This document shows positions 1 to 56,173 of a stretch of 64,000 bases of DNA, piece by piece. The stretch lies in IMG/VR virus record IMGVR_UViG_3300010354_000050, positions 32,001 through 96,000 of that record; one strand, written 5' to 3'. The position numbers were made by a program, and so were the translations under genes. The notes under the pieces were generated by a model. The model did no database searches. It was not told where the DNA came from and saw only the letters and a program-made list of their open reading frames with translations. The stretch is from a virus. Numbering within the stretch: position 1 is the stretch's first letter; each line of letters starts with the position of its first letter.

Positions 1-983
1 GGAATTTGGCTAAAGAAAGGATCATACTGATTGCCTGTTGTAGCTTGGCCTGGATTAGACGGCCCTGTTGTCCCTCCTGTAGTATTTCTAGAGTTAGAGC
101 TATTGGCTTGTACAGGTTCATTAGGTTGTACTACCCTTTGGTTGTCTTGTTCGCTAGGAGTATTGGTTCTTGAAGAAGAAGATTCACCCCTAAACAAGGA
201 AGTTTGAACGAGGTTTAAGGTCTGGGTTCTATTAAAAGTGGAAAAAGAACCTGGCCCCAAGATAAAGACTCTTCTTTGCCCTACTACTGCCCTAGCTTGC
301 CTTAGGTTTAACTCTAATTGTTCATTTTCTTCTTCAGTTTGTAGAGTAAAAGGGTAATGCAACAATATTGAACCATCTATGACTGCATCACTAATAGAAA
401 CCAACCCTCCATTTGCATTTACTACATCATTAAGGATAGTGTGGGGAGTACGAGAAAAATCATTTCTTTTAATTTTCATTCCTTTAGCATCTTCAGCAAA
501 TTTCCCCTTAAATTCAAACTTAATATCCCTACAACCTTCTCCACATTTTGATTTAAGAAAATCAGGAAATTTGTCTAAAGTAACTTCACTTCCCATAGTA
601 TAGGAAATTCTGTTATCTGTCCATGGGCCTTTTGGCAAACCTACAGCAACAACTTTAACAGAAGGCTCATCGCCTGTTGACAACCTTAGACCCACAAATT
701 GATAAAAAGTTTCAAAAAAAGTTCCTAATTCATACCCTACCCTGACTTTAATAGCTTTATCTGCAAATTCTGTTTTCAGCTTAACAATAGCATCAACAGC
801 ATAGGAATGGGGAGCAACTTCAAATTCTAGTTTTCCAGCCGCATGATCCATACCTAGTTCTATCCTGGGGTTAGCGGCAATAGGTTGAATTGGAAAACCT
901 TCAGTTTCAAAAGCAGTAAGGTTGACATCATGCCATTGAATTTGAATGAAAGGTTGAATTAAGCGGCCTACAGAAAAAGACAT
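1..983 (-). CDS. Partial virion protein, probable baseplate hub / late control D-like (runs off window start)
   Basis: Read manually from ATG at 983: MSFSVGRLIQPFIQIQWHDVNLT...GKLEFEV...IKVRVGYELG; open over the ~140 codons checked; lies downstream of the tape measure gene. Not in the ORF track. Confidence 0.55.
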   Translation of the reverse strand, partial: MSFSVGRLIQPFIQIQWHDVNLTAFETEGFPIQPIAANPRIELGMDHAAGKLEFEVAPHSYAVDAIVKLKTEFADKAIKVRVGYELGTFFETFYQFVGLRLSTGDEPSVKVVAVGLPKGPWTDNRISYTMGSEVTLDKFPDFLKSKCGEGCRDIKFEFKGKFAEDAKGMKIKRNDFSRTPHTILNDVVNANGGLVSISDAVIDGSILLHYPFTLQTEEENEQLELNLRQARAVVGQRRVFILGPGSFSTFNRTQTLNLVQTSLFRGESSSSRTNTPSEQDNQRVVQPNEPVQANSSNSRNTTGGTTGPSNPGQATTGNQYDPFFSQI

Positions 984-1073
984 TTTGGCTATTGGTTAGT
1001 TATTTACAGTTTGTTACTTGATTTTACCTTACCACTATGGTGCAATGACTGAAGAGTTATAGAAAAGGTCAAC

Positions 1074-1286
1074 ATGATTCCGAAGGTACACCCTCAGTAC
1101 GAATTTCCTAAAAGTGTAGATCTTGTAAGATTTGTAGACTTTGAAACTTCCCAACTATTTGAAGGTTATGTCTATAGATATTCTAAGGATGAACTTGAAT
1201 ATTGTTCAAGGCTACTAGAAAGATCAGAAATTTTTAATCTGATTCACGAAACCATGCAGAGAGATTGGCAAGACACAAAGGAATAG
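1074..1286 (+). CDS. Hypothetical protein
   Basis: 70-aa ORF with AAAGG RBS, on the opposite strand between structural genes. Confidence 0.5.
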   Translation: MIPKVHPQYEFPKSVDLVRFVDFETSQLFEGYVYRYSKDELEYCSRLLERSEIFNLIHETMQRDWQDTKE

Positions 1287-1353
1287 AATGGGTTTTCTAC
1301 TCCTTTTTCTGCTTAAGCTAAAGATTTAATCCTAAGTGATTTTTCACAAAACT

Positions 1354-4300
1354 TTAACCATAAACACCAGAATAATTAGCTGATTCAATAGCATTCATGA
1401 TGTGTGAAGCAATTTCTTCTGCTAGTTCCTTTCCTGACTTATTAGCACCGTTGACATTAATAGTGATCCCGGATACTGTTACAGAACCAGAACCTTGCAT
1501 ACCTGCTCTTACTGATGAACTTACCAAATTAGCAGCTTGGTTAGGCTTCATCATAATTTCACTAGAATTCCCTACTACTAGATCAGAACCATAGGGCATA
1601 TTAGCAAGTTCTCCACCAATAGCCCCCATAACTTCAGGCATTTCCATTCCTGCATAATTAGCCCTAATTACTCCTGCAAAAGGCGTAGGGTTAACAGCAC
1701 CTCTTCCGCCTGGATGAGCTTCAAAGTGCAAGTGTGGCCCTGTTGATCTGCCTGTATTACCTGATAATCCAAAAGGTACACTAGGGACTACTGAAGCGCC
1801 AGGTGGAAGTAAATATCTACTCAGGTGGGCAAAACGGTACATTACTCCGTCTGCCCCCATAACGTCCATAGTCATACCATAACCCTCCATCCATTCAGCC
1901 CTTAGGACTTGACCCGGAATGCCTAAGGCTAATTTAGTACCTATTGGCATACCATAGTCATTTCCTCGGTGAATTCTACCATCTCTCCACCCATAGGGAG
2001 AAGTCATTGGAAAGTTACCAATCCCTCCCCCAATCGGCCCCATAGCTTCTCCACCAAAACTAAAATTTGATGTAACTGTAGGAGTATTAACAACTTCTAC
2101 TCTTACTGCATTTACAACTTCTGTTCTAATTCCAGATTGAAGAATAGACCCAACAGCACTTGTCAAAGATGCAATGGCATTTAGTCTATTAGCATTGTCA
2201 GTTTTTAACTGAGAAACTTCATTCTTTACTTCATTATTTTTCTGCAAAATATTGTTCAAATATTGCAAAGCATTAGAATTTGTTGATGCAATGTGATTCA
2301 AAGGTGCAGTTAATACTGAAATATCCCCATTGCCATTAGCAGCAGCTTTAGTAGGGATGATAAGTTCAGAACTATTGGCAATTACAAGGTTTGAACCAGG
2401 TGGCTTATTTGCAAGTTCAGATTCAATAGCCTTAGGGAGAGGCATAAAGTTGTCTGTACCAAAAGATCCCTTATATTGGGGCACTGCTTCTTGGGACTCC
2501 ATAAGCTTAACAATATTTTCTCTATCTGTACGTAAGAACCTTAGCCTAGCCTGGTCTTCAGGATTAAGACGATTCCTTCTACTTGACAGACTACCAATTT
2601 CATTATCTACCCTTTGAAGATCATTTTCAAGTGAACCTGTTTTATGTAGCCCAAACCTACTAGCTAATGGGCCTAAGGCATCAATAATACCGTTTTTTAT
2701 TGCATTCCCAAATTTTGAAAAAGCTTCTGAAATATAAGTCAAAACATTGTTAGAAAACTCTTGGATTGAATTCCAAACTTCTATTTGTTTTTCTCTGCTA
2801 GTAAAAAATTCTTTTAAGAAATTAATTGCTGAACCAATAGCATGGCCAATGCCCATTATTAGTTCTACAATAACCCTTACAAGAAAACCTATGAGCCAGC
2901 CAACACTGTACAATATTCCTTGGATTATTAAACTTAATAAGTCAAAAATTGCCTTAGTAATTGTGCCTATGTTCTGACCTGCAAAGGCTCCAATAGCATA
3001 ACCAATTATGGTTCCAAGAATAGCTCCTAGGGCTACTCCTAAGGGATTAAGTGATGCAGAACCAACAGCCGCTCCTGCCTTCATACCTATAATAGAACCA
3101 GCAGCCCCTCCAGCAGAAGCACCAGCCGCTTGCCCCACAGGTTGCCCTTCCTTCAGGCGATTTCCAAAGTCAGAAATGGCAAATAAACCTGCTAAAATGG
3201 CACCTGGTTTTAGCAATTTGTCTACTTTGGTCTTTGCAGCACTCGTCTTCAATAGATCGTCCATAGTTTTCTTGATTTCATCAGCAATTTCTGTTGCTGC
3301 ATCTCGTGTCTGTTGTGCAGTTGCTTTAGGATTTTGTGCCATCCAGTTTGCCATTCTTCTATTACCTACATTAGTTGCTGCTTGTTTTGGATCTGTAGCC
3401 GGATTAGCAAGTTCATCAGACAACTCCCTAAACAAAGAATCAGGAGCTAACTTAGAAAAGAAAGTCCCTAACCCAAACATTCCTAGTATTTTAGCTCCTA
3501 GACCACTAAACAGTTGCGGTATAACACCAATAAGCATTACAGAAAGGCCAGATAAAATAGCTGGCAGAAGTATGGTAAAGAAACCAAACATTGCACTTTC
3601 TACAGGAAAAGTTTTAACAACTTCCATGAAACCCCAAGAAAGAAACTTAATGAAAGCCTTAATCAAATCAACTATAGCCTGTTTTCCACCTTGCTCCACA
3701 AAACCTGTAACAAAGCCTTCAGCTAACGCACTTTTGGTTGTTTCTGAAACAAAGGCATTAAATATGTTGAAGAGTTCTACAAAGAATATAGCTAATAGTT
3801 CACTAAACAATTTGCCATGTTGCCTAGCTAAGTCAGAACTTAAGTAAGTAGAAATTTGCTCCCTTAGTTTAGTACCTAGTTGATCAGGAGTTACAGAAAA
3901 GTCTTCTAACATACTCCCTGTGTCTAAAAACTCTTCATAGGAAATAACCCCTCCCATTGCCAGAGCATTGTTGATAGTTGACATAGTAGCCCTCAATGAA
4001 AGGGTTTTCATTAAATTTTCTTTTAAGTTCTCATCAGTTATCTTTTCTAACTCCTCTACAAACCAGTTATTATAGGTTTCAAAAGTTCTTTGGAGGGACA
4101 TGGTTGATTCTCTCAACTGCATAAGCCTAGTGCCAAGTAGTTGAAAAGGATCAAACAACATAGCCATTGAATCAGTAATTGGAAATAATACTTGACTAAT
4201 ATTGAAGAAAATATCTCTAACGTATTCAAAGACAGATAGGTTTTCTAAAGCTGCATCAGCAACATCTTCAACAGCTTTGCCAGAATCATCAATAGCCCTA

Positions 4301-46267: not shown

Positions 46268-46387
46268 GAAATGCTACTTTATATCTAACCTAGAGATTTA
46301 AGCAACTTCTAAAAGGAGTTGCTTTTTTTATTGAATAGACCTATAATGTAGTTAATCTGAGAAAACATAGAAAAAGAGAAAAAAAAA

Positions 46388-46810
46388 ATGATTGAACCTT
46401 ATTTTGTAGAAAGGCAGCTTCAAACTTGGACAGGGTGGAACCCCTATGATAGGGCTAACCCTGTAAGAAGAAGTAGAGGGCATGGTATAAATTTTCTAGA
46501 AAACTTTCAAGGTTTTTCTTTTTGGAAATGGGATTCTTATAGAGAACTTTGCCAGATCATAGTTTTTAACCAGGATAAAGAAGAAGTTGGCTATATTGGT
46601 TACTACCTTGGTGGCTATTGTGTAAGTATCTACGTAGACCCTAAGTTCAGATGTCTGGGCTTAGGATCAAGGTTAATTAGCCTAGTTCCTAACTTAAAGG
46701 TCTTTCAAGAAGATGTAGGGTCATTCAACAAAAAATTAGACAAACAAGACCCTTTACATTCTAGGGAGTACCTGTTAGAATGGTATAGTAAGAAGGGAGT
46801 TTTGAGGTAA
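46388..46810 (+). CDS. GNAT-like acetyltransferase
   Basis: IYVDPKFRCLGLGSRLI acetyl-CoA motif; WYSKKG. Confidence 0.6.
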   Translation: MIEPYFVERQLQTWTGWNPYDRANPVRRSRGHGINFLENFQGFSFWKWDSYRELCQIIVFNQDKEEVGYIGYYLGGYCVSIYVDPKFRCLGLGSRLISLVPNLKVFQEDVGSFNKKLDKQDPLHSREYLLEWYSKKGVLR

Positions 46811-48250: not shown

Positions 48251-49665
48251 TTTGTAAAAGGTTGAGGAGAAATTTGTGAAAAATTCATTAAAGCCTTTTA
48301 TTTTTGGTACTTTGTTTAGTTTCTCGGTATCTTTCATACTTACGTTGGCTATTTTTGGAACAACTCCAAGTTCCCCAATAAAGGAAAACCTAATTGAGTC
48401 ATTAATAATGACAGTTTTTTATCACTCTTCAAGCTTAGCAGGTTTCCTAATTGGGGCTAGTTTAACAGACGGCAAATAAAAATAGGAGCCAAAAAATAAT
48501 TTCAGAATTGTCCAACCTTCCACTAGATAGCTGCTTGACTTTTAGGCCCCACTCCTTTATACTAGAAAAGTAATCAGTCAGGTAAAAAATGCTAAAAATT
48601 ATGGCAACGCAAGAACAACCCCTTTTCGGTAGTAACTATGGATATTTTGATATTTCCGTAGTAGGCTACTTTCCTGTAGATCCTACTCTACCCCCATTTG
48701 AACCTCAACTTTCAAAATTTGTTAAAACAGATGCCTTTGAAAGTGAACCTATTGCCAATTTTGCATGGGTGAGTCATGATGGTAACGGTAAAGTAGATGG
48801 TTTTCCAATCTGTGAATCTTGGGAGGAAGAATCTAAAAACCCCTTTCTTTACTTGTCCTTTCTGGATGACTATCTTCTTCCTGAAGACTCTGACTGCCAC
48901 ATTCCTGTTTTAGCACCCTTTGCACTTTAAGCCTTAATCCTTTACACTAAAGAAGTAATCAGTGAGGTAAAAAATGAACCTTGAACAAATTTGGAATCTA
49001 GTACAACTACCTGAAGAAGCTCAGGTGACGATTCACAATTTTGCCGCTATTGATGGAGGTAAGTTGCTTTTTCAGAGTAATGAAAAAGTGATCGGGGAGT
49101 ACGATTATAGAGATCCTGATGGGGGTCGATCTATTCATGGTGCTGCTACTGTAAAACTAGATGATTTTATCATTGAGTTTTCCTATCGTGAAAAATGGTG
49201 GGAGGGTCTGCGGGTGTTGGTTAAGGAAGAAGGTAAAAAATACTTTTCTGAAGCTTACTTTGATGAAGATTTTCCTAATTGGGCTTTTCAGGAAGACTAA
49301 TCAACTTTAATAAAAACACTAAGAACCTTAAAAAAAGGTTCTTTTTTTTATTGACTTGGAGTACAAAGGCTGTTAGAATAGAAAAGAAAGCTAGAAAGAA
49401 GTAGAAAAAAATGGAAAAAGTAACACTATATACTAATCTAGACTACATAATTTTTCCTAAATATGAGTCCAAATTTCCCCCCCCCCCGATTGGTAGTTAC
49501 ATCTTGTGTTCCACTAGTAATCCCAGCAGAAAAGCAAAGCTTGAAGTTATGCAACTGACTTATGATGAAAAAGGATGGAAAGCTGAGTTGCACATTCCCT
49601 CTTTAGTTTTAGAAAGAATGTCTGTTAAGCAGTGGTACAAACAATACCTAGGAGTAGATATTTAG

Positions 49666-51285
49666 ATGAAACTTAACCCTATTGGTTATCCTGTAATCTC
49701 TGACCAAACTTTTTCTAAAGTTTTTGGAGAATTCACTAAAAGGTCAATTCCCACATCTACAGAAAAAACTAGAAAACTTCTTCAGGCAAACACTATTCCT
49801 TTTCCTGTAGACTACCCTGAAAACTTATTTGATGGGGAATTACCTTTTCCAGATCTTAAAGCAAAAACTTTGGATCAACATTTTGAAAAAATTGCTGAAG
49901 ATTTTGTAGGCCAATATTTGCAAGATGCCGAAACTTTAGCTACTTGTAAAATCCCACCCATCCCACCTATTCAAGAACTTGTTCCCGAAGTAGGCTGGAC
50001 AAAATATACTTTTGAAAATGAAACATGGATTAAAGAACCTGTCCCCTACCCTTTAGAATCTGGGATATTTGATACTGAAACTTTTGTAGAAGGTGGGGCT
50101 TTCCCAGTTATTGGTACTGCTTTAACCCATAAAGCTGCCTACATCTGGTTAGCTTCTGAATTTGTTAACCCTGATCTCCCTGTAGAGCAATGGGATCAAT
50201 TTGGGCTAATTCCCTTAGGAACTGACAAGTTCATTATTGGTCATAATATTTCCTATGATAGAGTTAGGGTTCAAGAAGCATACAACCTTACCAACAATTT
50301 ACCAGAAAACTTCTACTTCGATACCCTTTCTGCACATATTGGTGTATCCGGGTTGGCTTCTGGTCAACGTTGGCTCTATGTTCTAGCAGCAAAAGACCCA
50401 GATTCCCTTACTGAACAAGAAAAGCGCCAACTACGCTTTTCTCCTAAATGGGCTTCTGAAGGAAGTACAAACTCCTTGATTGAAACCTATAACTTCCATG
50501 TAGCTGCACCCAAAGAACTTTTTCAAGATGGAGATTTTAGGTTAAAGGAATCTGATAAGGAAGTCAGGGATTTGTTTGTAAAAGCAAAAACCATGAAGGA
50601 GTTGGCTAACCCCTCTGATTTCTACAAACTAATCGACTACGCGATTAAGGACGTTTTCTATACTTTTGAGCTATATCAAGCCCTATGGCCTAAGTACAGA
50701 GAATCTACTCCTAGTACAGTAGCCTTAGCAGGTCATTACTTTTTAGCAGGCTCTAAGATTCCCCTTGTTGACAACTGGGAAAGTTGGATTGATAAAACTG
50801 AAGAAGTTTTTCAAGCTCAAATGGAAGAAATGGATCAGATTTGCAAAGACCTAATGAAAACCCATGTAGAAGAATGGGGGAAAGAGTTAGACAAAGATCT
50901 GCTACAAATTTCCTATAGGTTTGAAGAAGAACCTGAAAAATTAGTAGAAGAAGTTGGTTTGCAGAAAAAGAAAACTGTAAAGCTAACTGATGTTTTGAAA
51001 GCACTAGATAAACTAGAAATTGAATGGAGGTTTAACTCTAAACAGTGGGCTGAACAAGACCCCTGGCTAAAACAGCTAGATTGGACACCGCAAAACTACA
51101 CAGGAAAGTTTGCCTTTATGCCTAAGTGGGCTTGTAAATTTTTAGCTGAACCTGAAAAGAATAAGTTTTCAGTTAAAAACCGTGCTGCCCATTTACTCCT
51201 TAAACTAAAGTGGGAAGGAAAGCCTATCTTATGGGTTGACGGTCAAGGCTGGTGCTTTGAAGTAGAAGATGAAGCTGATGCTTAA
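49666..51285 (+). CDS. Pol-gamma-like family A DNA polymerase, N-terminal (exonuclease) part
   Basis: FDTETFV, IGHNISYDRVRVQEAY, FDTLSAHIGVSG, YAIKDV, DPWLKQLDW, LKLKWEGKP...GWCF. Confidence 0.88.
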   Translation: MKLNPIGYPVISDQTFSKVFGEFTKRSIPTSTEKTRKLLQANTIPFPVDYPENLFDGELPFPDLKAKTLDQHFEKIAEDFVGQYLQDAETLATCKIPPIPPIQELVPEVGWTKYTFENETWIKEPVPYPLESGIFDTETFVEGGAFPVIGTALTHKAAYIWLASEFVNPDLPVEQWDQFGLIPLGTDKFIIGHNISYDRVRVQEAYNLTNNLPENFYFDTLSAHIGVSGLASGQRWLYVLAAKDPDSLTEQEKRQLRFSPKWASEGSTNSLIETYNFHVAAPKELFQDGDFRLKESDKEVRDLFVKAKTMKELANPSDFYKLIDYAIKDVFYTFELYQALWPKYRESTPSTVALAGHYFLAGSKIPLVDNWESWIDKTEEVFQAQMEEMDQICKDLMKTHVEEWGKELDKDLLQISYRFEEEPEKLVEEVGLQKKKTVKLTDVLKALDKLEIEWRFNSKQWAEQDPWLKQLDWTPQNYTGKFAFMPKWACKFLAEPEKNKFSVKNRAAHLLLKLKWEGKPILWVDGQGWCFEVEDEADA

Positions 51286-51543
51286 AAACCTGTTTTCTAT
51301 TGCAATTGAATAGTTTGGTTGAAAAAATCAGGATAGTGATGATGATGGAATATCTCAGACAGTCTTAGGCTTTATTAGTTCATTTGTTCCTTCAAAACCT
51401 GAATCAAGAGTTTATGCTAGAATTAACCCTTGGTAATGTCATGTAACCCTGACATTGAATAAGAAACCTTTTCAGGTTTCTTTTTTTTTGTTGATATAGG
51501 TAAACTGTTCCTATACAATAGGATTGTAGATAAGATTTCAATC

Positions 51544-51879
51544 ATGTTTAACCTATATGTTTGCCTTCCACCTATTACTGGCGTAGTTCTAGCTTATGTC
51601 TTCAGGAACCTAGGGCTATATCAATTTCAATTTCTGTCTTTGTTTGGAGTTTACCTGTATTACTTGTGCTTCAATTTGGTTTTCTTCAGGAAACTTAGAG
51701 GAGCCCGAATAACCCTCACAGGATTACTTTCTTTCATATACCTTGTACTCAGTTTTCTCTTTCCTGTTTACCATCAAATACCTGAACAACTCTTGGCTGT
51801 AGAAAGAGTAATCCTTTTAGCTGATTTCAGAGAAAACCTTTACAAGGTTTCCTTTTTTATTCTTTGTAGAACTACCTAA
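51544..51879 (+). CDS. Membrane protein between the two polymerase genes
   Basis: Three hydrophobic segments; putative promoter upstream. Confidence 0.55.
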   Translation: MFNLYVCLPPITGVVLAYVFRNLGLYQFQFLSLFGVYLYYLCFNLVFFRKLRGARITLTGLLSFIYLVLSFLFPVYHQIPEQLLAVERVILLADFRENLYKVSFFILCRTT

Positions 51880-52133
51880 ACAGTAAAAAAGCAAGTAGCT
51901 AATGAATTTCTTGACAACTAACATATACTAGGTTAAAATAGAAATGTGTACTTCAGGAGCAAGTAATGTTTAAGTGCAAATGCTTTCTTTATGCTGATGA
52001 CGAATATTTTACAGATATTACCCTCAAAGTAAAGCCAGTGCAAAACAATAACTTACATTGTTGAATCTGTAGTTATCCACCCCTACGGCCTAGATGACTA
52101 TGATTTCACACTGTCCCTTTCTGATTATTAAGC

Positions 52134-53438
52134 ATGAAAAAATCTATTAAAAGAATACCCCACCCTAGCGGAAAAGATGAAAATGTAGGAGGATTGTTTT
52201 CTAAAGAATTTATTGTAGATATGGAAGTTGGAAGGCTCTCTAGCGATAGTCCATTAGCCCAACGTGCTATTGATATTGCCAACAGTACCTCCTATTGGAA
52301 CTCTATTAGGAAGAGGGTTACAGAAAGGATCTACGTACCTACAGAAAACCCACTAGATAGTGACAACAAAGCCAATATCACTATCCCTAACATTCTCCCC
52401 CATGGCACCGTTACCAGAAGAACTGTAGAACCTATGATGGTTACAATGTGTTCTACAAAGCCAAATAGGATAGGTACAGAACTTAAGACAAGGATCAAAG
52501 CCCCTAAAGGTTGGAAAATTGTAGGTGCTGACTTTGACGGTCAAGAGTTACAAATTGCTTCTACCTATGCTGACAAGTGGGAAGGTGGGTTCATTGGAGC
52601 TTCTCCTATGACCTACATTATTCTAGCAGGTAGTAAGGATAAAGGTACAGATGCCCATACCTTGCTATCTAAGAAAATCAATACAGATAGAGATACGGCT
52701 AAGGGTGTAGGCTTTGCTATCTTGTATGGTGCTGGTTCATTAACTATTGCTAACACTATCAAGAAAAAGTTCAAAGATCGTCATGAAGCTGAACTAAGAG
52801 GTTTTGGTGAAGAGGCAATTAAGTTCAAGAAAGGTTTGAAAGATTCTGAAGGTTACTACTATGGTGGAACCGATTCAGGTTGCTACAATTTCATGGAAAA
52901 CATTGCCTTACGTTCCAGAATCCCTACTTTACCTTGTCTAAAAACTAAAATTTCTACTGCATTGAGGCCAAATGTAGTCGATAATAAATTTGTTACAGGT
53001 AGGGTCAACTGGACTATTCAGGCTTCGGGTGCAGAAGTTTTATCTATTTTCCTAACTTCCGTTCACTGGTTAGCAAGTTATTTCAAGATTCCTGCCCAAT
53101 TCATCATCAGTATCCATGATGAGACTTGGTTCATGGTTCCTGAAAAGTTTGCTGAGCAATTTTGTGTCATCTTTCAAATGGCCCATTTGTATACCTGGTC
53201 AAGGTTTCATTATGGTGTAGGAATTAATGATCTCCCCCTTAGTCGAGCATTCTTTTCTTCAGTAGCTATTGATGAGAGGATCAGGAAAACACCAAAAGAA
53301 AAAACTATTACTCCCTCCCACCCTGAAGGAATTAATGAACCCTCTGGTGAAGAATTTTCTATGAAGCAAATGGATGAACTTGGTTGGGTGAAGAAGTTAG
53401 GAACAAGAAAACAGCTTATTGAAAAAGGAATTTTGTGA
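52134..53438 (+). CDS. Pol-gamma-like family A DNA polymerase, C-terminal (polymerase) part
   Basis: PHPSG..NVG, GTVTRRTVE, RIGTELK, VGADFDGQEL (motif A), RDTAKGVGFAILYGAG (B), RVNWTIQASG, SIHDE (C). Confidence 0.92.
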   Translation: MKKSIKRIPHPSGKDENVGGLFSKEFIVDMEVGRLSSDSPLAQRAIDIANSTSYWNSIRKRVTERIYVPTENPLDSDNKANITIPNILPHGTVTRRTVEPMMVTMCSTKPNRIGTELKTRIKAPKGWKIVGADFDGQELQIASTYADKWEGGFIGASPMTYIILAGSKDKGTDAHTLLSKKINTDRDTAKGVGFAILYGAGSLTIANTIKKKFKDRHEAELRGFGEEAIKFKKGLKDSEGYYYGGTDSGCYNFMENIALRSRIPTLPCLKTKISTALRPNVVDNKFVTGRVNWTIQASGAEVLSIFLTSVHWLASYFKIPAQFIISIHDETWFMVPEKFAEQFCVIFQMAHLYTWSRFHYGVGINDLPLSRAFFSSVAIDERIRKTPKEKTITPSHPEGINEPSGEEFSMKQMDELGWVKKLGTRKQLIEKGIL

Positions 53439-53702
53439 TGAAGAACACAATAAAAATTGGCCCTTATTTAGTTTGTTTTGAAACTAACCCTGGTGGAATA
53501 GGGAAACTTTTCTACTTCTATCAGCCTAATGATCCACCAACCAAGCAAAAATTAGCTTTTGCTATAACTATTTTAGAAAGAATTTATGTCGGAGAAGAAG
53601 ATACAGGACTAGAAGTTCATCAAGCTTTACAAATACTTCTTCTAGGTCTTTGCTTGACAATTGCTAAGATCTAAACCGTTGTTGTCTATTAACTTAAACA
53701 AG

Positions 53703-54290
53703 ATGTCTAAACTACTCATTGTTGTATCTGGCCCTGATCGTGTAGGGAAATCGACTTTAATTGACACTTTAATGTTTTATAAGGGTTTTTCTGCTAAAAA
53801 CTTTTATGTAAAACACCATAGCAAACCGCCGCTAGATTATGATAATGTCTATGACTATCACAAAGATAGTGTCAAAGGTTGGCTTGAATCGGGTAAGCAA
53901 TATGCAATTTTCGACCGTTCCTGGCCTTGCACCTACATTCTGGAACGTCTAAGGGATGGAAATACAGGCCATTTTGATCAACTTATTGATTTTGAAATTG
54001 AATTGTACGATTTGATGGAGAAGAAAGAAGCAAAAGTTGTTCACCTAGGTATTACAAAACCTTGGCATTGGTCTGGGCCACATCATTTGAAGGAACTCAG
54101 GGAGTTTTACGGATCAGATAAGAAAAGAGCAATTAGGGATAACTACATTGTTAGGATGCAAGAACATGAAAATTATTTGTCAGAATTGGTAAATTTCTGT
54201 AATCAAATTACACTTTTCCCATCCTTGTTTCTAGAATTTCCTGAGGTAAATGAAGTTTGGGATTCAATCTATAATACTATTGGTAGTTAA
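53703..54290 (+). CDS. Thymidylate/nucleotide kinase-like P-loop protein
   Basis: LIVVSGPDRVGKST and IFDRS. Confidence 0.7.
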   Translation: MSKLLIVVSGPDRVGKSTLIDTLMFYKGFSAKNFYVKHHSKPPLDYDNVYDYHKDSVKGWLESGKQYAIFDRSWPCTYILERLRDGNTGHFDQLIDFEIELYDLMEKKEAKVVHLGITKPWHWSGPHHLKELREFYGSDKKRAIRDNYIVRMQEHENYLSELVNFCNQITLFPSLFLEFPEVNEVWDSIYNTIGS

Positions 54291-55728: not shown

Positions 55729-56173
55729 TTTAGAAACTTTCAATTAACTACTTGACATTAGTAAAGTTCTTTGCTATAGTAGTTATGTAGTTGAAAAAAA
55801 AGGGGGAATAAGCCCATGATGATCTACAACCCTTCTATTGCCAATCCTGAAGCCGATCTTTCTCAAATTCCTGCATTTATTTTAGAAGATGGGGGAACGG
55901 TTTACTGGAATGCTCTTGACAAAGAGCAGTGTAAGGAATTTTTTGATTATGCTATGGGGTATATCTGGCAAGACAATGTAGGGTCTACTATGGCTTGCGA
56001 AATCCTTGGTTGCCTAGAAGACACTTATCCTGATTGGGTAGAGGAATTTGAAAATTTGTAAATAATCTAAAAGGAGACTTAAGTAAGTCTCCTTTTTTTA
56101 TTCATGGGTTTGTTGGTTGACAATAAACTAATAATGTTTTACAATAGGAAAAGTTAAGCAAAAGGCAATTCAG

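What the first reader, a model, noticed from the sequence alone, without database searches (positions are those of the whole stretch)
49666..53438. Mitochondrial Pol-gamma-like polymerase split into two separated genes
Both ORFs carry Pol gamma-specific motifs (GHNISYDRVRV, DTLSAHIGVSG, GTVTRRTVE, RIGTELK, RVNWTIQ). Pol gamma-type enzymes are rare in phages but known from Acaryochloris cyanophages. The first gene ends just after LKWEG...GWCF and the second starts just before RIPHPSG..NVG, so the break falls in the variable spacer between those two conserved blocks of eukaryotic Pol gamma. The ~850-bp gap holds a terminator-like hairpin (~51460-51490), a membrane-protein gene and a new TTGACA promoter at 51911. 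I see no intein ends or group I core. Inference: a naturally two-subunit Pol gamma with separately expressed exonuclease and polymerase halves.
Basis: partly seen in the sequence, partly recalled or inferred. Interest (0 to 1): 0.8.

Follow-up and report, generated by a model that had tools for sequence, protein, structure and literature searches.

The report
Two-piece Pol-gamma-like phage DNA polymerase
A lake virus of the cyanophage type encodes its mitochondrial-type DNA polymerase as two separate genes, cut in a loop where related viruses carry selfish nuclease genes; the arrangement looks functional, and gene splits of this kind are already known for other phage enzymes.

Summary
ORF 49666-51285 (539 aa) is the mitochondrial-type exonuclease domain plus about 195 further residues. 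ORF 52134-53438 (434 aa) is the family A polymerase part. An 848-bp gap separates them.

It is a true gene split, not an intron, intein or misassembly.
- Nothing is missing at the junction, and the gap has no Rfam hit, whereas the published Mic1 intron scores E 2.5e-9.
- The nearest relative found, L127, has the halves as abutting ORFs, TAA then ATG.
- 36 of the 120 best N-half homologue clusters stop in this loop, and 35 of 35 stand-alone C-halves start with Met just before PHP.
- Both halves are under purifying selection.
- Contigs from other samples confirm the gap.

In relatives the same site holds free-standing HNH or other endonuclease-like genes, and one pair shows a homing-type co-conversion tract. 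The window has no endonuclease there. It has terminator and promoter signals and a truncated small membrane-protein gene, and that gene cassette is missing in a 93% identical strain.

This is a new member of a known kind (Aeh1 nrdA/mobE, split gp43, S-SBP1 PolA). The scan has noted endonuclease-split polymerases on other DNA before. Expression and assembly are untested.

The parts
49321..49379 (+). Hairpin plus T-run (49321-49343) followed by a promoter-like site, TTGACT-17-TAGAAT (49351-49379). This is the predicted start of the unit that holds the N-half.
   Evidence: consensus scan only.
49411..49665 (+). 84-aa ORF whose stop codon abuts the ATG of the N-half.
49666..51285 (+). N-half (539 aa): N-terminal region, 3'-5' exonuclease domain, and about 195 further residues that end 9 aa after GWC.
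   Evidence: PF18136 at E 7.2e-57. Aligns to Mip1 9c51_A 13-391 and 403-488. The profile aligns to 9c51_A 13-484. Exo motif residues are invariant in alignment A3.
51286..52133 (+). 848-bp spacer between the two polymerase genes. No Rfam match, no endonuclease remnant, and unique in the window and in all fetched loci.
51461..51491 (+). Intrinsic-terminator-like hairpin plus T-run after the N-half.
   Evidence: (-10 kcal/mol, z -2.47).
51491..51519 (+). Promoter-like site TTGATA-17-TACAAT in front of the small ORF.
   Evidence: 10 of 12.
51544..51879 (+). ORF111: the truncated copy of a 143-144-aa small membrane protein family. The first 95 residues are conserved; the acidic C-terminal part is missing.
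   Evidence: 4 homologue clusters, 62-79% identity in the alignment. No Pfam or PHROG match.
51834..51858 (+). Weaker hairpin plus T-run over the 3' end of ORF111.
   Evidence: -7.3 kcal/mol, z -2.09. Not listed by the scan.
51457..51907 (+). 451-bp segment (terminator, promoter, ORF111, second hairpin). In a ~93% identical strain it is absent and replaced by 33 other letters.
   Evidence: tables 5, 5c and 8 (run X6, 5029-nt contig).
51911..51939 (+). Promoter-like site TTGACA-17-TAAAAT, about 195 bp upstream of the C-half start. It lies in a segment kept in the X6 strain (5 of 131 letters differ over 51908-52038).
52134..53438 (+). C-half (434 aa): end of the spacer region, thumb, palm and fingers, with polymerase motifs A, B and C. 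It has its own ATG 8 codons before PHP.
   Evidence: PF00476 at E 1.9e-11. Aligns to 9c51_A 526-947 and to 9g74_A 711-932 and 996-1186. Motif residues are invariant in A5.

Best explanation
The virus makes its Pol-gamma-like replicative polymerase as two polypeptides that assemble without covalent joining. The gene was broken in a short surface loop between GWC and PHP. In related viruses this loop is the insertion site of free-standing homing-endonuclease genes. Those genes spread by cutting intact copies and being copied in together with flanking polymerase sequence, a stop codon and a new start codon. In the window's lineage the endonuclease is gone, or was never kept, and the break has become permanent. 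One relative has the two ORFs abutting. A 93% identical strain has a spacer of roughly 470 bp (estimated from the indels). The window has an 848-bp spacer with a terminator, a promoter for the C-half, and an inserted, truncated small membrane-protein gene that has its own promoter and terminator. Shown: the split, its conservation, selection on both halves, endonuclease genes at the same site in relatives, and one co-conversion tract. Inferred: assembly of the halves, separate transcription, and an endonuclease origin for this particular lineage.
For: (1) Junction. In the alignment with five single-gene phage enzymes nothing is lost at the break. In 15 of 15 IMG/VR loci of the first scan that show both halves, the halves are contiguous and in one frame.
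(2) Not RNA-level. The gap has no Rfam match at E <= 1. The same search finds the published Mic1 intron at E 2.5e-9.
(3) L127 (N part 78%, C-half 87% identical) has ORF 2..997 ending in TAA, followed at once by the ATG of ORF 998..2293.
(4) Of the 120 best N-half homologue clusters, 36 are N-only proteins ending 4-22 residues after GWC, 78 are full length (893-937 aa) and 6 are 685-745 aa. All 35 stand-alone C-half clusters of 426-437 aa start with Met 4-10 residues before PHP.
(5) Window against L127: pN 0.139 and pS 0.779 for the N part, pN 0.101 and pS 0.721 for the C-half.
(6) Exo and pol motif residues are invariant in A3 and A5 and align to those of Mip1 and POLG.
(7) The same site holds free-standing ORFs in L064, L140 and L168 (HNH, E 1.3e-4 and 3.2e-5 for the two scanned; L168 by 64-67% identity), in L150 (a different HNH, E 6.3e-8), and in L115, L119 and L179 (unnamed family).
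(8) L064 (split) against L076 (fused): 97-100% identity away from the break, falling to 82%, unalignable next to the insert, 69-88% for about 1 kb downstream, then 97-99% again.
(9) The split/fused label needs at least 23 changes on a tree of 287 N-half rows, at least 17 of them forced by starred branches. Some split rows sit 0.02-0.05 from fused ones.
(10) Assembly. Short contigs of X2, X3 and X4 are identical to the window and bridge 51125-51360, 51493-51643, 51671-51821 and 51885-52035. A 5-kb contig of X6 spans the whole region, with the cassette indel.
(11) Complex model: ipSAE 0.89 (runs 0.88-0.89), best of 3 controls 0.00. The mark was reached by 58 of 80 solved complexes and 2 of 110 mismatched pairs. 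At least 96% of contacts are shared between runs, and partner pLDDT is at least 87. Solved single-chain Pol gamma structures exist, so this pass may only reflect likeness to them.
(12) This is the only family A match in the 119-kb record, and there is no family B match.
Against: There is no endonuclease gene or remnant in the window's gap (tblastn at E <= 10 gives only a 7-residue chance match), and none was seen in the members of the window's own clade whose gap could be examined (window, X6 strain, L127). The junction peptides of that clade also differ from those of the HNH-bearing loci. An endonuclease origin for this lineage is therefore an inference from position only. Most relatives fetched as DNA are fused (172 of 187 loci, duplicates not removed), so the split is a minority state. 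Transcription signals are consensus matches, and the scan's counts are not above its shuffles. The virus record is estimated 56% complete, so another polymerase elsewhere cannot be excluded. The complex score is expected for halves of a protein with solved homologues.
Confidence: 0.65

Rival explanations
1. The enzyme is the same functional two-piece one, but the break in this lineage arose without any endonuclease. A small mutation created a stop and a start in the loop, as published for S-SBP1-like T7-type polymerases. The intergenic space so created was later filled by transcription signals and the small membrane-protein gene.
For: L127 has only TAA-ATG between the halves. No endonuclease is seen in the window, the X6 strain or L127. 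The clade's junction peptides differ from those of the HNH cassette. PMC10201439 (passages read) documents such a fission in another PolA group.
Against: The break lies in the same 11-residue loop that at least three kinds of free-standing ORF occupy in relatives. The window's wider starred clade of 40 rows also contains split forms with such ORFs (P0005, P0006, L115). Endonuclease loss that leaves a split is described in the phage 25 / 44RR comparison (PMC2988022, passages).
Confidence: 0.2
2. The gap is an unrecognised self-splicing intron or another RNA-level joining device, and one full-length protein is made.
For: Group I introns do interrupt this gene family elsewhere (Mic1; PMC7156551). 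An in-frame join from U51270 to just after G52136 (866 nt) can be drawn on the sequence.
Against: There is no Rfam match at E <= 1. L127 has no spacer at all yet keeps the stop and the ATG. 35 of 35 stand-alone C-halves start with Met at the same place. 451 bp of the gap are dispensable in a close strain. The gap contains a homologue of an independent protein-coding gene family.
Confidence: 0.03
3. The halves are remnants of a disrupted, no longer functional polymerase, and replication relies on another enzyme.
For: The record is only about 56% complete. The gap carries a foreign gene.
Against: Both ORFs are intact with all catalytic motifs. pN is 0.10-0.14 against saturated pS of 0.72-0.78 between two split lineages. 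The same split is kept in dozens of protein clusters. No other family A or B polymerase is in the 119 kb held.
Confidence: 0.07
4. The gap is an assembly artefact, a chimeric join inside one continuous gene.
For: The window comes from a metagenome assembly.
Against: Contigs from other samples match the gap and its borders exactly or at about 93%. Proteins 96-98% identical to each half exist as separate gene calls in other data sets (P0001, P0002, P0121).
Confidence: 0.01

Closest known systems
Split gene 43 (43A/43B) of Aeromonas phages 25 and 44RR (family B DNA polymerase), as described in PMC2988022 (passages read)
   Same: A replicative phage DNA polymerase is encoded as two genes. One relative has a free-standing seg-type endonuclease at the break, and another (44RR) has only an untranslated intercistronic spacer. 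The two products of phage 25 co-purify and are active.
   Different: The polymerase family differs (B, not A/Pol gamma type), as do the break site and the host group. Here the spacer also carries predicted terminator and promoter signals and a small membrane-protein gene, and one relative has no spacer at all.
nrdA-a / mobE / nrdA-b of Aeromonas phage Aeh1 (PMC3045599 abstract; PMC2988022 passages)
   Same: An essential replication-related enzyme is fragmented by a free-standing HNH endonuclease gene and reassembled from two polypeptides without RNA or protein splicing.
   Different: The window has no endonuclease. In Aeh1, new terminal tails are essential for activity. Here the new ends are only 4-22 and 4-10 residues long (acidic tail, Lys/Trp-rich head), and their role is untested.
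Exo/pol gene fission in S-SBP1-like T7-type family A polymerases (PMC10201439, passages read)
   Same: A family A polymerase of cyanophages is split into an exonuclease-bearing gene and a polymerase gene. Assembly is predicted by structure modelling, with the new termini exposed.
   Different: That split arose by a frameshift and gives overlapping adjacent genes at the exo/pol boundary of a T7-like enzyme. Here the enzyme is Pol-gamma-like, the break lies about 195 residues after the exonuclease domain, it is linked to mobile endonuclease genes in relatives, and the genes are 848 bp apart.
Synechococcus phage S-CBWM1 gp77, 'DNA polymerase gamma' (MG450654.1)
   Same: It is the closest cultured-phage homologue: 43% identity to the N-half and 51% to the C-half, colinear over the whole length.
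   Different: It is a single 953-aa protein, with two residues between the parts that match the window's two halves.
Group I intron in the Pol gamma gene of Microcystis phage Mic1 (PMC7156551, passages read)
   Same: The same gene family is annotated as two ORFs.
   Different: Mic1 has a 298-bp ribozyme inside motif A (Rfam E 2.5e-9) and no start codon at the exon border. The window's break is elsewhere and has no ribozyme match.
'Fractured genes' with split inteins flanking a free-standing endonuclease (PMC2677866, abstract read)
   Same: A phage replication gene is broken in two, with an endonuclease gene in between (as in relatives of the window).
   Different: No intein halves are present. 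The extra residues at the break are far too few, and Pfam finds no intein domain.

Membership tests
Pol-gamma-type family A DNA polymerase | Mitochondrial-type N-terminal/exonuclease domain (PF18136) | tested here: met
   E 7.2e-57 on residues 59-344 of the N-half. The only solved structures matched are Pol gamma chains.
Pol-gamma-type family A DNA polymerase | Exo I, II and III acidic residues | tested here: met
   D136, E138, D198 and D329 are invariant in A3. They lie in the blocks that align with Mip1. Which residues are the catalytic ones is recalled knowledge of family A enzymes.
Pol-gamma-type family A DNA polymerase | Polymerase motifs A, B and C | tested here: met
   D133/E138, R186/K190/Y198/G199 and H328/D329/E330 are invariant in A5 and align to POLG. 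Motif B has Phe where POLG has Tyr in the alignment.
Pol-gamma-type family A DNA polymerase | Catalytic subunit as one polypeptide | tested here: not met
   Two ORFs in different frames, 848 bp apart.
Endonuclease-fragmented 'genes in pieces' (Aeh1 nrdA/mobE type) | A gene that is continuous in relatives is divided into two ORFs with nothing lost | tested here: met
Endonuclease-fragmented 'genes in pieces' (Aeh1 nrdA/mobE type) | A free-standing homing endonuclease gene between the pieces | tested here: not met
   None in the window's gap. Present at the same site in relatives L064, L140, L168 and L150.
Endonuclease-fragmented 'genes in pieces' (Aeh1 nrdA/mobE type) | Lateral spread with co-conversion of flanking sequence | tested here: inconclusive
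   Clear for L064 against L076. Less clear for L115 against L121. Not testable for the window, because no near-identical fused relative was found.
Endonuclease-fragmented 'genes in pieces' (Aeh1 nrdA/mobE type) | The two products reassemble into an active enzyme | not testable with these tools
   Only a model: ipSAE 0.89 against 0.00 in the controls, possibly from likeness to solved Pol gamma.
Group I intron | Catalytic core recognised by RF00028 | tested here: not met
   No match at E <= 1 in 49000-54000. Positive control: Mic1 at E 2.5e-9.
Group I intron | The downstream exon needs no start codon of its own | tested here: not met
   An ATG lies at the break in the window, in L127 and in 35 of 35 stand-alone C-half clusters.
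Split intein / fractured gene | Intein N- and C-fragments on the broken ends | tested here: not met
   Only 9 and 8 extra residues lie between the conserved blocks and the ends. No intein family appears in Pfam at E <= 0.1. The minimal size of intein fragments is recalled knowledge.
S-SBP1-like exo/pol fission of T7-type PolA | Frameshift-born, overlapping adjacent exo and pol genes at the exo/pol boundary of a T7-like enzyme | tested here: not met
   The enzyme is of the Pol gamma type. The break is about 195 residues after the exonuclease domain, with an 848-bp spacer.

The most novel reading that the evidence does not exclude
The break has been domesticated. With its own terminator and promoter between the genes, the virus could set the ratio or timing of the proofreading-bearing piece and the polymerising piece independently, for example to tune fidelity during infection. 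The loop that tolerates the cut may be the same insertion-tolerant spot where the animal mitochondrial enzyme grew its large spacer insert.
Probability: 0.12. Interest if true: 0.75.

Novelty: new member of a known kind. Interest (0 to 1): 0.45.

Why it matters
The split shows that a Pol-gamma-type polymerase can be cut after its exonuclease-plus-thumb part and apparently still work. This gives a natural split site for structural and engineering work on this enzyme family. It also marks the loop where eukaryotic Pol gamma is most variable as tolerant of insertions. It adds a family A, mitochondrial-type case to the few documented examples of essential phage enzymes fragmented by selfish endonuclease genes. 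The series found here (endonuclease present; spacer with transcription signals; spacer with a guest gene; no spacer at all) illustrates how such a break can outlive the element that may have caused it. I found no report of a split Pol-gamma-like polymerase of this kind in the library searches or in the passages.

Tried and rejected
Group I/II intron or other known RNA: cmscan of 49000-54000 at E <= 1 gave only two irrelevant weak hits inside the N-half ORF. L064, L071 and L056 gave none.

Endonuclease remnant in the gap: tblastn with six insert ORFs from relatives gave nothing meaningful.

Repeat or mobile element: the gap DNA has no other copy in the window or in any fetched locus, nor elsewhere in the 119-kb record.

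A possible remnant of the missing acidic tail of the small protein at 51326-51424 is not significant (E 5-9) and I do not claim it.

RNA evidence: no RNA holder was listed among the 24 runs, so splicing, transcript ends and expression could not be examined.

The parts of 49600-53500 without cover in X2-X4 say nothing.

P0046 as a query in viral contigs found no relative.

The P0009 and A2 scans of IMG/VR returned almost only fused loci. The split relatives came mainly from the metagenome scan.

Only the matching contig lengths (12742 and 26508) suggest it.

The naming of the L115-type insert ORF rests on a language-model look-alike search only (best scores 0.88-0.92; T5orf172 on under half of the members, and NUMOD3-bearing clusters). 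It is a lead, not a finding.

The tree is FastTree with long outgroup branches. It left out loci whose N-half match did not span query residues <=10 to >=500 (L127 among them) and the last 8 residues of each row. Duplicate contigs fetched twice were not removed from the counts.

Supplementary files of papers were closed and were not asked for. Supplementary sequence lists for PMC10201439, if such lists exist, could show whether split Pol gamma entries were seen there.

Full report
WHAT IS THERE. The window is bases 32001-96000 of a 119-kb IMG/VR virus record, estimated 56% complete. On the + strand, ORF 49666-51285 (539 aa) and ORF 52134-53438 (434 aa) lie in different frames, 848 bp apart. 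The first matches Pfam PF18136, the exonuclease domain of mitochondrial DNA polymerase, at E 7.2e-57 on residues 59-344. The second matches PF00476, family A polymerase, at E 1.9e-11. At E <= 0.001 each half matches only Pol gamma chains among solved structures. The N-half aligns to yeast Mip1 9c51_A 13-391 and 403-488. The C-half aligns to 9c51_A 526-947 and to 9g74_A 711-932 and 996-1186. A profile of N-halves reaches 9c51_A 484 and 8d3r_A 501. The closest cultured phage is Synechococcus phage S-CBWM1 (43% and 51% identity), followed by S-TIM5-like phages, A-HIS1/2 and Mic1.

THE JUNCTION. Five phage homologues with a continuous reading frame across this site were aligned with the two halves. 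The first piece ends and the second begins inside the short loop between GWC and PHP, and nothing is missing. In S-CBWM1 the parts that match the two halves are two codons apart. The first scan of IMG/VR returned 18 loci; 15 of them show both halves, and all 15 have them contiguous and in frame. Over all loci with a match (L002-L188) the states are: 172 fused, 6 split by a 713-739-nt insert, 1 split with abutting ORFs, and 8 partial. Some contigs were fetched twice, so these are not counts of distinct viruses.

NOT AN INTRON, INTEIN OR ARTEFACT. The region has no Rfam match at E <= 1 apart from two irrelevant weak hits inside the N-half ORF. As a positive control, the same search on Mic1 finds a group I intron at E 2.5e-9, exactly between the two annotated Mic1 polymerase ORFs. 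The Mic1 paper already describes that 298-bp intron (PMC7156551, passages read). Pfam finds no intein domain, and the ends carry only 9 and 8 extra residues. Contigs from other samples support the assembly. Short contigs of runs X2, X3 and X4 are identical to the window across 51125-51360, 51493-51643, 51671-51821 and 51885-52035. A 5029-nt contig of run X6, about 93% identical, spans 49603-53500.

THE SPLIT IS CONSERVED AND UNDER SELECTION. The closest relative fetched as DNA is L127 (N part 78%, C-half 87% identical). It has ORF 2..997 ending in TAA, followed at once by the ATG of ORF 998..2293, so the same break has no spacer at all. Among the 120 best homologue clusters of the N-half, 36 are N-only proteins of 461-544 aa that end 4-22 residues after GWC, 78 are full length (893-937 aa) and 6 are 685-745 aa. 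Among homologues of the C-half, all 35 clusters of 426-437 aa start with Met 4-10 residues before PHP. Proteins 96-98% identical to each half exist as separate gene calls in other data sets (P0001, P0002, P0121). Between the window and L127, synonymous sites are saturated (pS 0.72-0.78) while pN is 0.10-0.14 in both halves. Both pieces have therefore been kept by selection across a long divergence in the split state. The exonuclease and polymerase motif residues are invariant in alignments of split forms. The 119 kb held contain no other family A match and no family B match.

WHY THIS SITE. In seven relatives the same loop holds a free-standing ORF. L064, L140 and L168 carry an HNH endonuclease gene (Pfam E 1.3e-4 and 3.2e-5 for L064 and L140; the three are 64-70% identical to one another). 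L150 carries a different HNH gene (E 6.3e-8). L115, L119 and L179 carry a 226-251-aa ORF with no Pfam or PHROG match. A look-alike search points weakly to T5orf172/GIY-YIG-type and NUMOD3-bearing viral proteins (a lead only). In L064 the stop of the HNH gene overlaps the ATG of the C-half.

L064 and the fused L076 are 97-100% identical outside the polymerase junction. Approaching the insert, identity falls to 82% and the sequences then become unalignable. It is 69-88% for about 1 kb downstream and returns to 97-99% after that. This is the pattern expected if the cassette was copied in together with flanking sequence from a diverged donor. A second pair, L115 against L121, is less clear.

On a FastTree of 287 N-half rows (235 distinct), the split/fused label needs at least 23 changes, at least 17 of them forced by well-supported branches. 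Several split rows lie 0.02-0.05 substitutions per site from fused ones. The window's own clade (window, P0001, P0002, P0003) is entirely split, and its nearest fused row is 1.14 away. L127 was too incomplete for the tree.

WHAT THE GAP HOLDS HERE. There is no endonuclease or remnant of one. In order, the gap contains:
- a hairpin plus T-run at 51461-51482;
- a promoter-like site at 51491-51519;
- ORF111 at 51544-51879;
- a weaker hairpin plus T-run at about 51834-51858;
- the promoter-like site TTGACA-17-TAAAAT at 51911-51939;
- about 195 nt up to the C-half ATG.

ORF111 has four homologue clusters of 143-144 aa (62-79% identical in the alignment). The window's copy keeps the hydrophobic first 95 residues and lacks the acidic C-terminal part. 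Two of these homologues come from contigs of the same lengths as those bearing the 96-98% polymerase relatives.

In the X6 strain, 451 bp (51457-51907: terminator, promoter, ORF111 and second hairpin) are replaced by 33 other letters. To my eye these again form a hairpin plus T-run, though I did not fold them. The segment with the 51911 promoter-like site is kept. The small gene is therefore a dispensable guest cassette, while a terminator-then-promoter spacer is common to both strains. Similar pairs of terminator-like and promoter-like sites stand before the N-half unit (49321-49379) and elsewhere nearby. All these signals are consensus matches, and the scan's totals are not above its shuffles.

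DO THE HALVES ASSEMBLE? A complex model of the two halves, each with an alignment of split relatives, scored ipSAE 0.89 (three runs, 0.88-0.89). The best of three controls scored 0.00. About 460 contacts were predicted, at least 96% of them shared between runs, with partner pLDDT at least 87. The tool's mark was reached by 58 of 80 solved complexes and 2 of 110 mismatched pairs. The two new ends (N-half 526-535, C-half 1-8) are part of the interface. Single-chain Pol gamma structures are solved, so this pass may only restate the homology. It does not show binding.

COMPARISON WITH WHAT IS KNOWN. A review of T4-type mobile elements (PMC2988022, passages read) describes several cases. The endonuclease gene mobE splits nrdA in phage Aeh1, and the enzyme is functional. 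The gene mobA is inserted in the T4 topoisomerase large-subunit gene. A seg-type gene lies at the split of DNA polymerase gene 43 in Aeromonas phage 25, while the related phage 44RR has only an untranslated spacer; the 43A and 43B products of phage 25 co-purify and are active. The window resembles the 44RR state, and its relatives resemble the phage 25 state. PMC3045599 (abstract) shows that the new tails of the Aeh1 pieces are essential for activity. Here the new ends are short, acidic on the first piece and Lys/Trp-rich on the second, and they are untested. PMC10201439 (passages read) reports exo/pol fission in S-SBP1-like T7-type polymerases as the first such case in family A. It describes the Pol gamma cluster without mentioning a split in the passages I saw. 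'Fractured genes' (PMC2677866, abstract) use split inteins, which are absent here. Library searches for a split Pol-gamma-like phage polymerase found nothing beyond the Mic1 intron (passages of PMC10087341). Earlier notes of this scan describe endonuclease-split gp43-type polymerases, one two-piece family A polymerase and a motif-A intron in a Pol-gamma-like gene on other DNA. I did not test those.

VERDICT. The polymerase is a natural two-piece enzyme, most likely functional. The break lies in a loop that selfish endonuclease genes target in relatives. Whether this lineage's break began with such a gene (my preferred reading) or with a small mutation cannot be settled with the DNA I could reach. 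Expression, transcript structure and assembly are predictions. It is a new member of a known kind of arrangement, of moderate interest.

Noticed in passing
L126:6502-7345, L071:7038-7925; proteins P0004, P0007, P0036, P0039, P0045, P0067 and P0231-P0238: There is a second recurrent break in the same polymerase family, in the loop between motifs A and B. The N-pieces are 685-745 aa. The C-pieces are about 283-290 aa and have a conserved new head. The inserts are about 700-890 nt and carry free-standing ORFs. In L126 a 188-aa ORF overlaps the N-piece stop and, to my eye, resembles the L115-type ORF; I ran no comparison.
   Followed up: partly
L002:3363-3635 (Microcystis phage Mic1): The two annotated 'DNA polymerase gamma' ORFs of Mic1 are separated by a group I intron (Rfam E 2.5e-9) inside motif A. 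This is already stated in the Mic1 paper (PMC7156551).
   Followed up: yes
window 51544-51879; proteins P0241-P0244: This is a small protein family of 143-144 aa with a hydrophobic first 95 residues and a poly-Asp-rich tail, and no Pfam or PHROG match. The homologues are only 62-79% identical to the window copy, while the flanking polymerase halves of the presumed same contigs are 96-98% identical. The cassette therefore looks fast-evolving or exchanged.
   Followed up: partly
L115:3704-4459, L119:1486-2241, L179:1416-2096: These free-standing ORFs of 226-251 aa sit in the polymerase break and have no Pfam or PHROG match; L115 and L179 are 38% identical. They may be an undescribed homing-endonuclease-like family. 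The look-alike search points weakly to T5orf172/GIY-YIG and NUMOD3 proteins.
   Followed up: partly
window 50870-51060 (N-half residues about 405-462): The N-half of the window clade carries about 50 extra residues that have no counterpart in S-CBWM1, S-TIM5, A-HIS1/2 or Mic1 (alignment A1, columns 424-480). This stretch does not align to Mip1.
   Followed up: no
window 46300-46324, 46753-46781, 48535-48563, 49321-49379, 55752-55780: Terminator-like hairpins and near-consensus sigma-70-type sites recur between the short genes of this region. This suggests many small transcription units read by the host polymerase.
   Followed up: no
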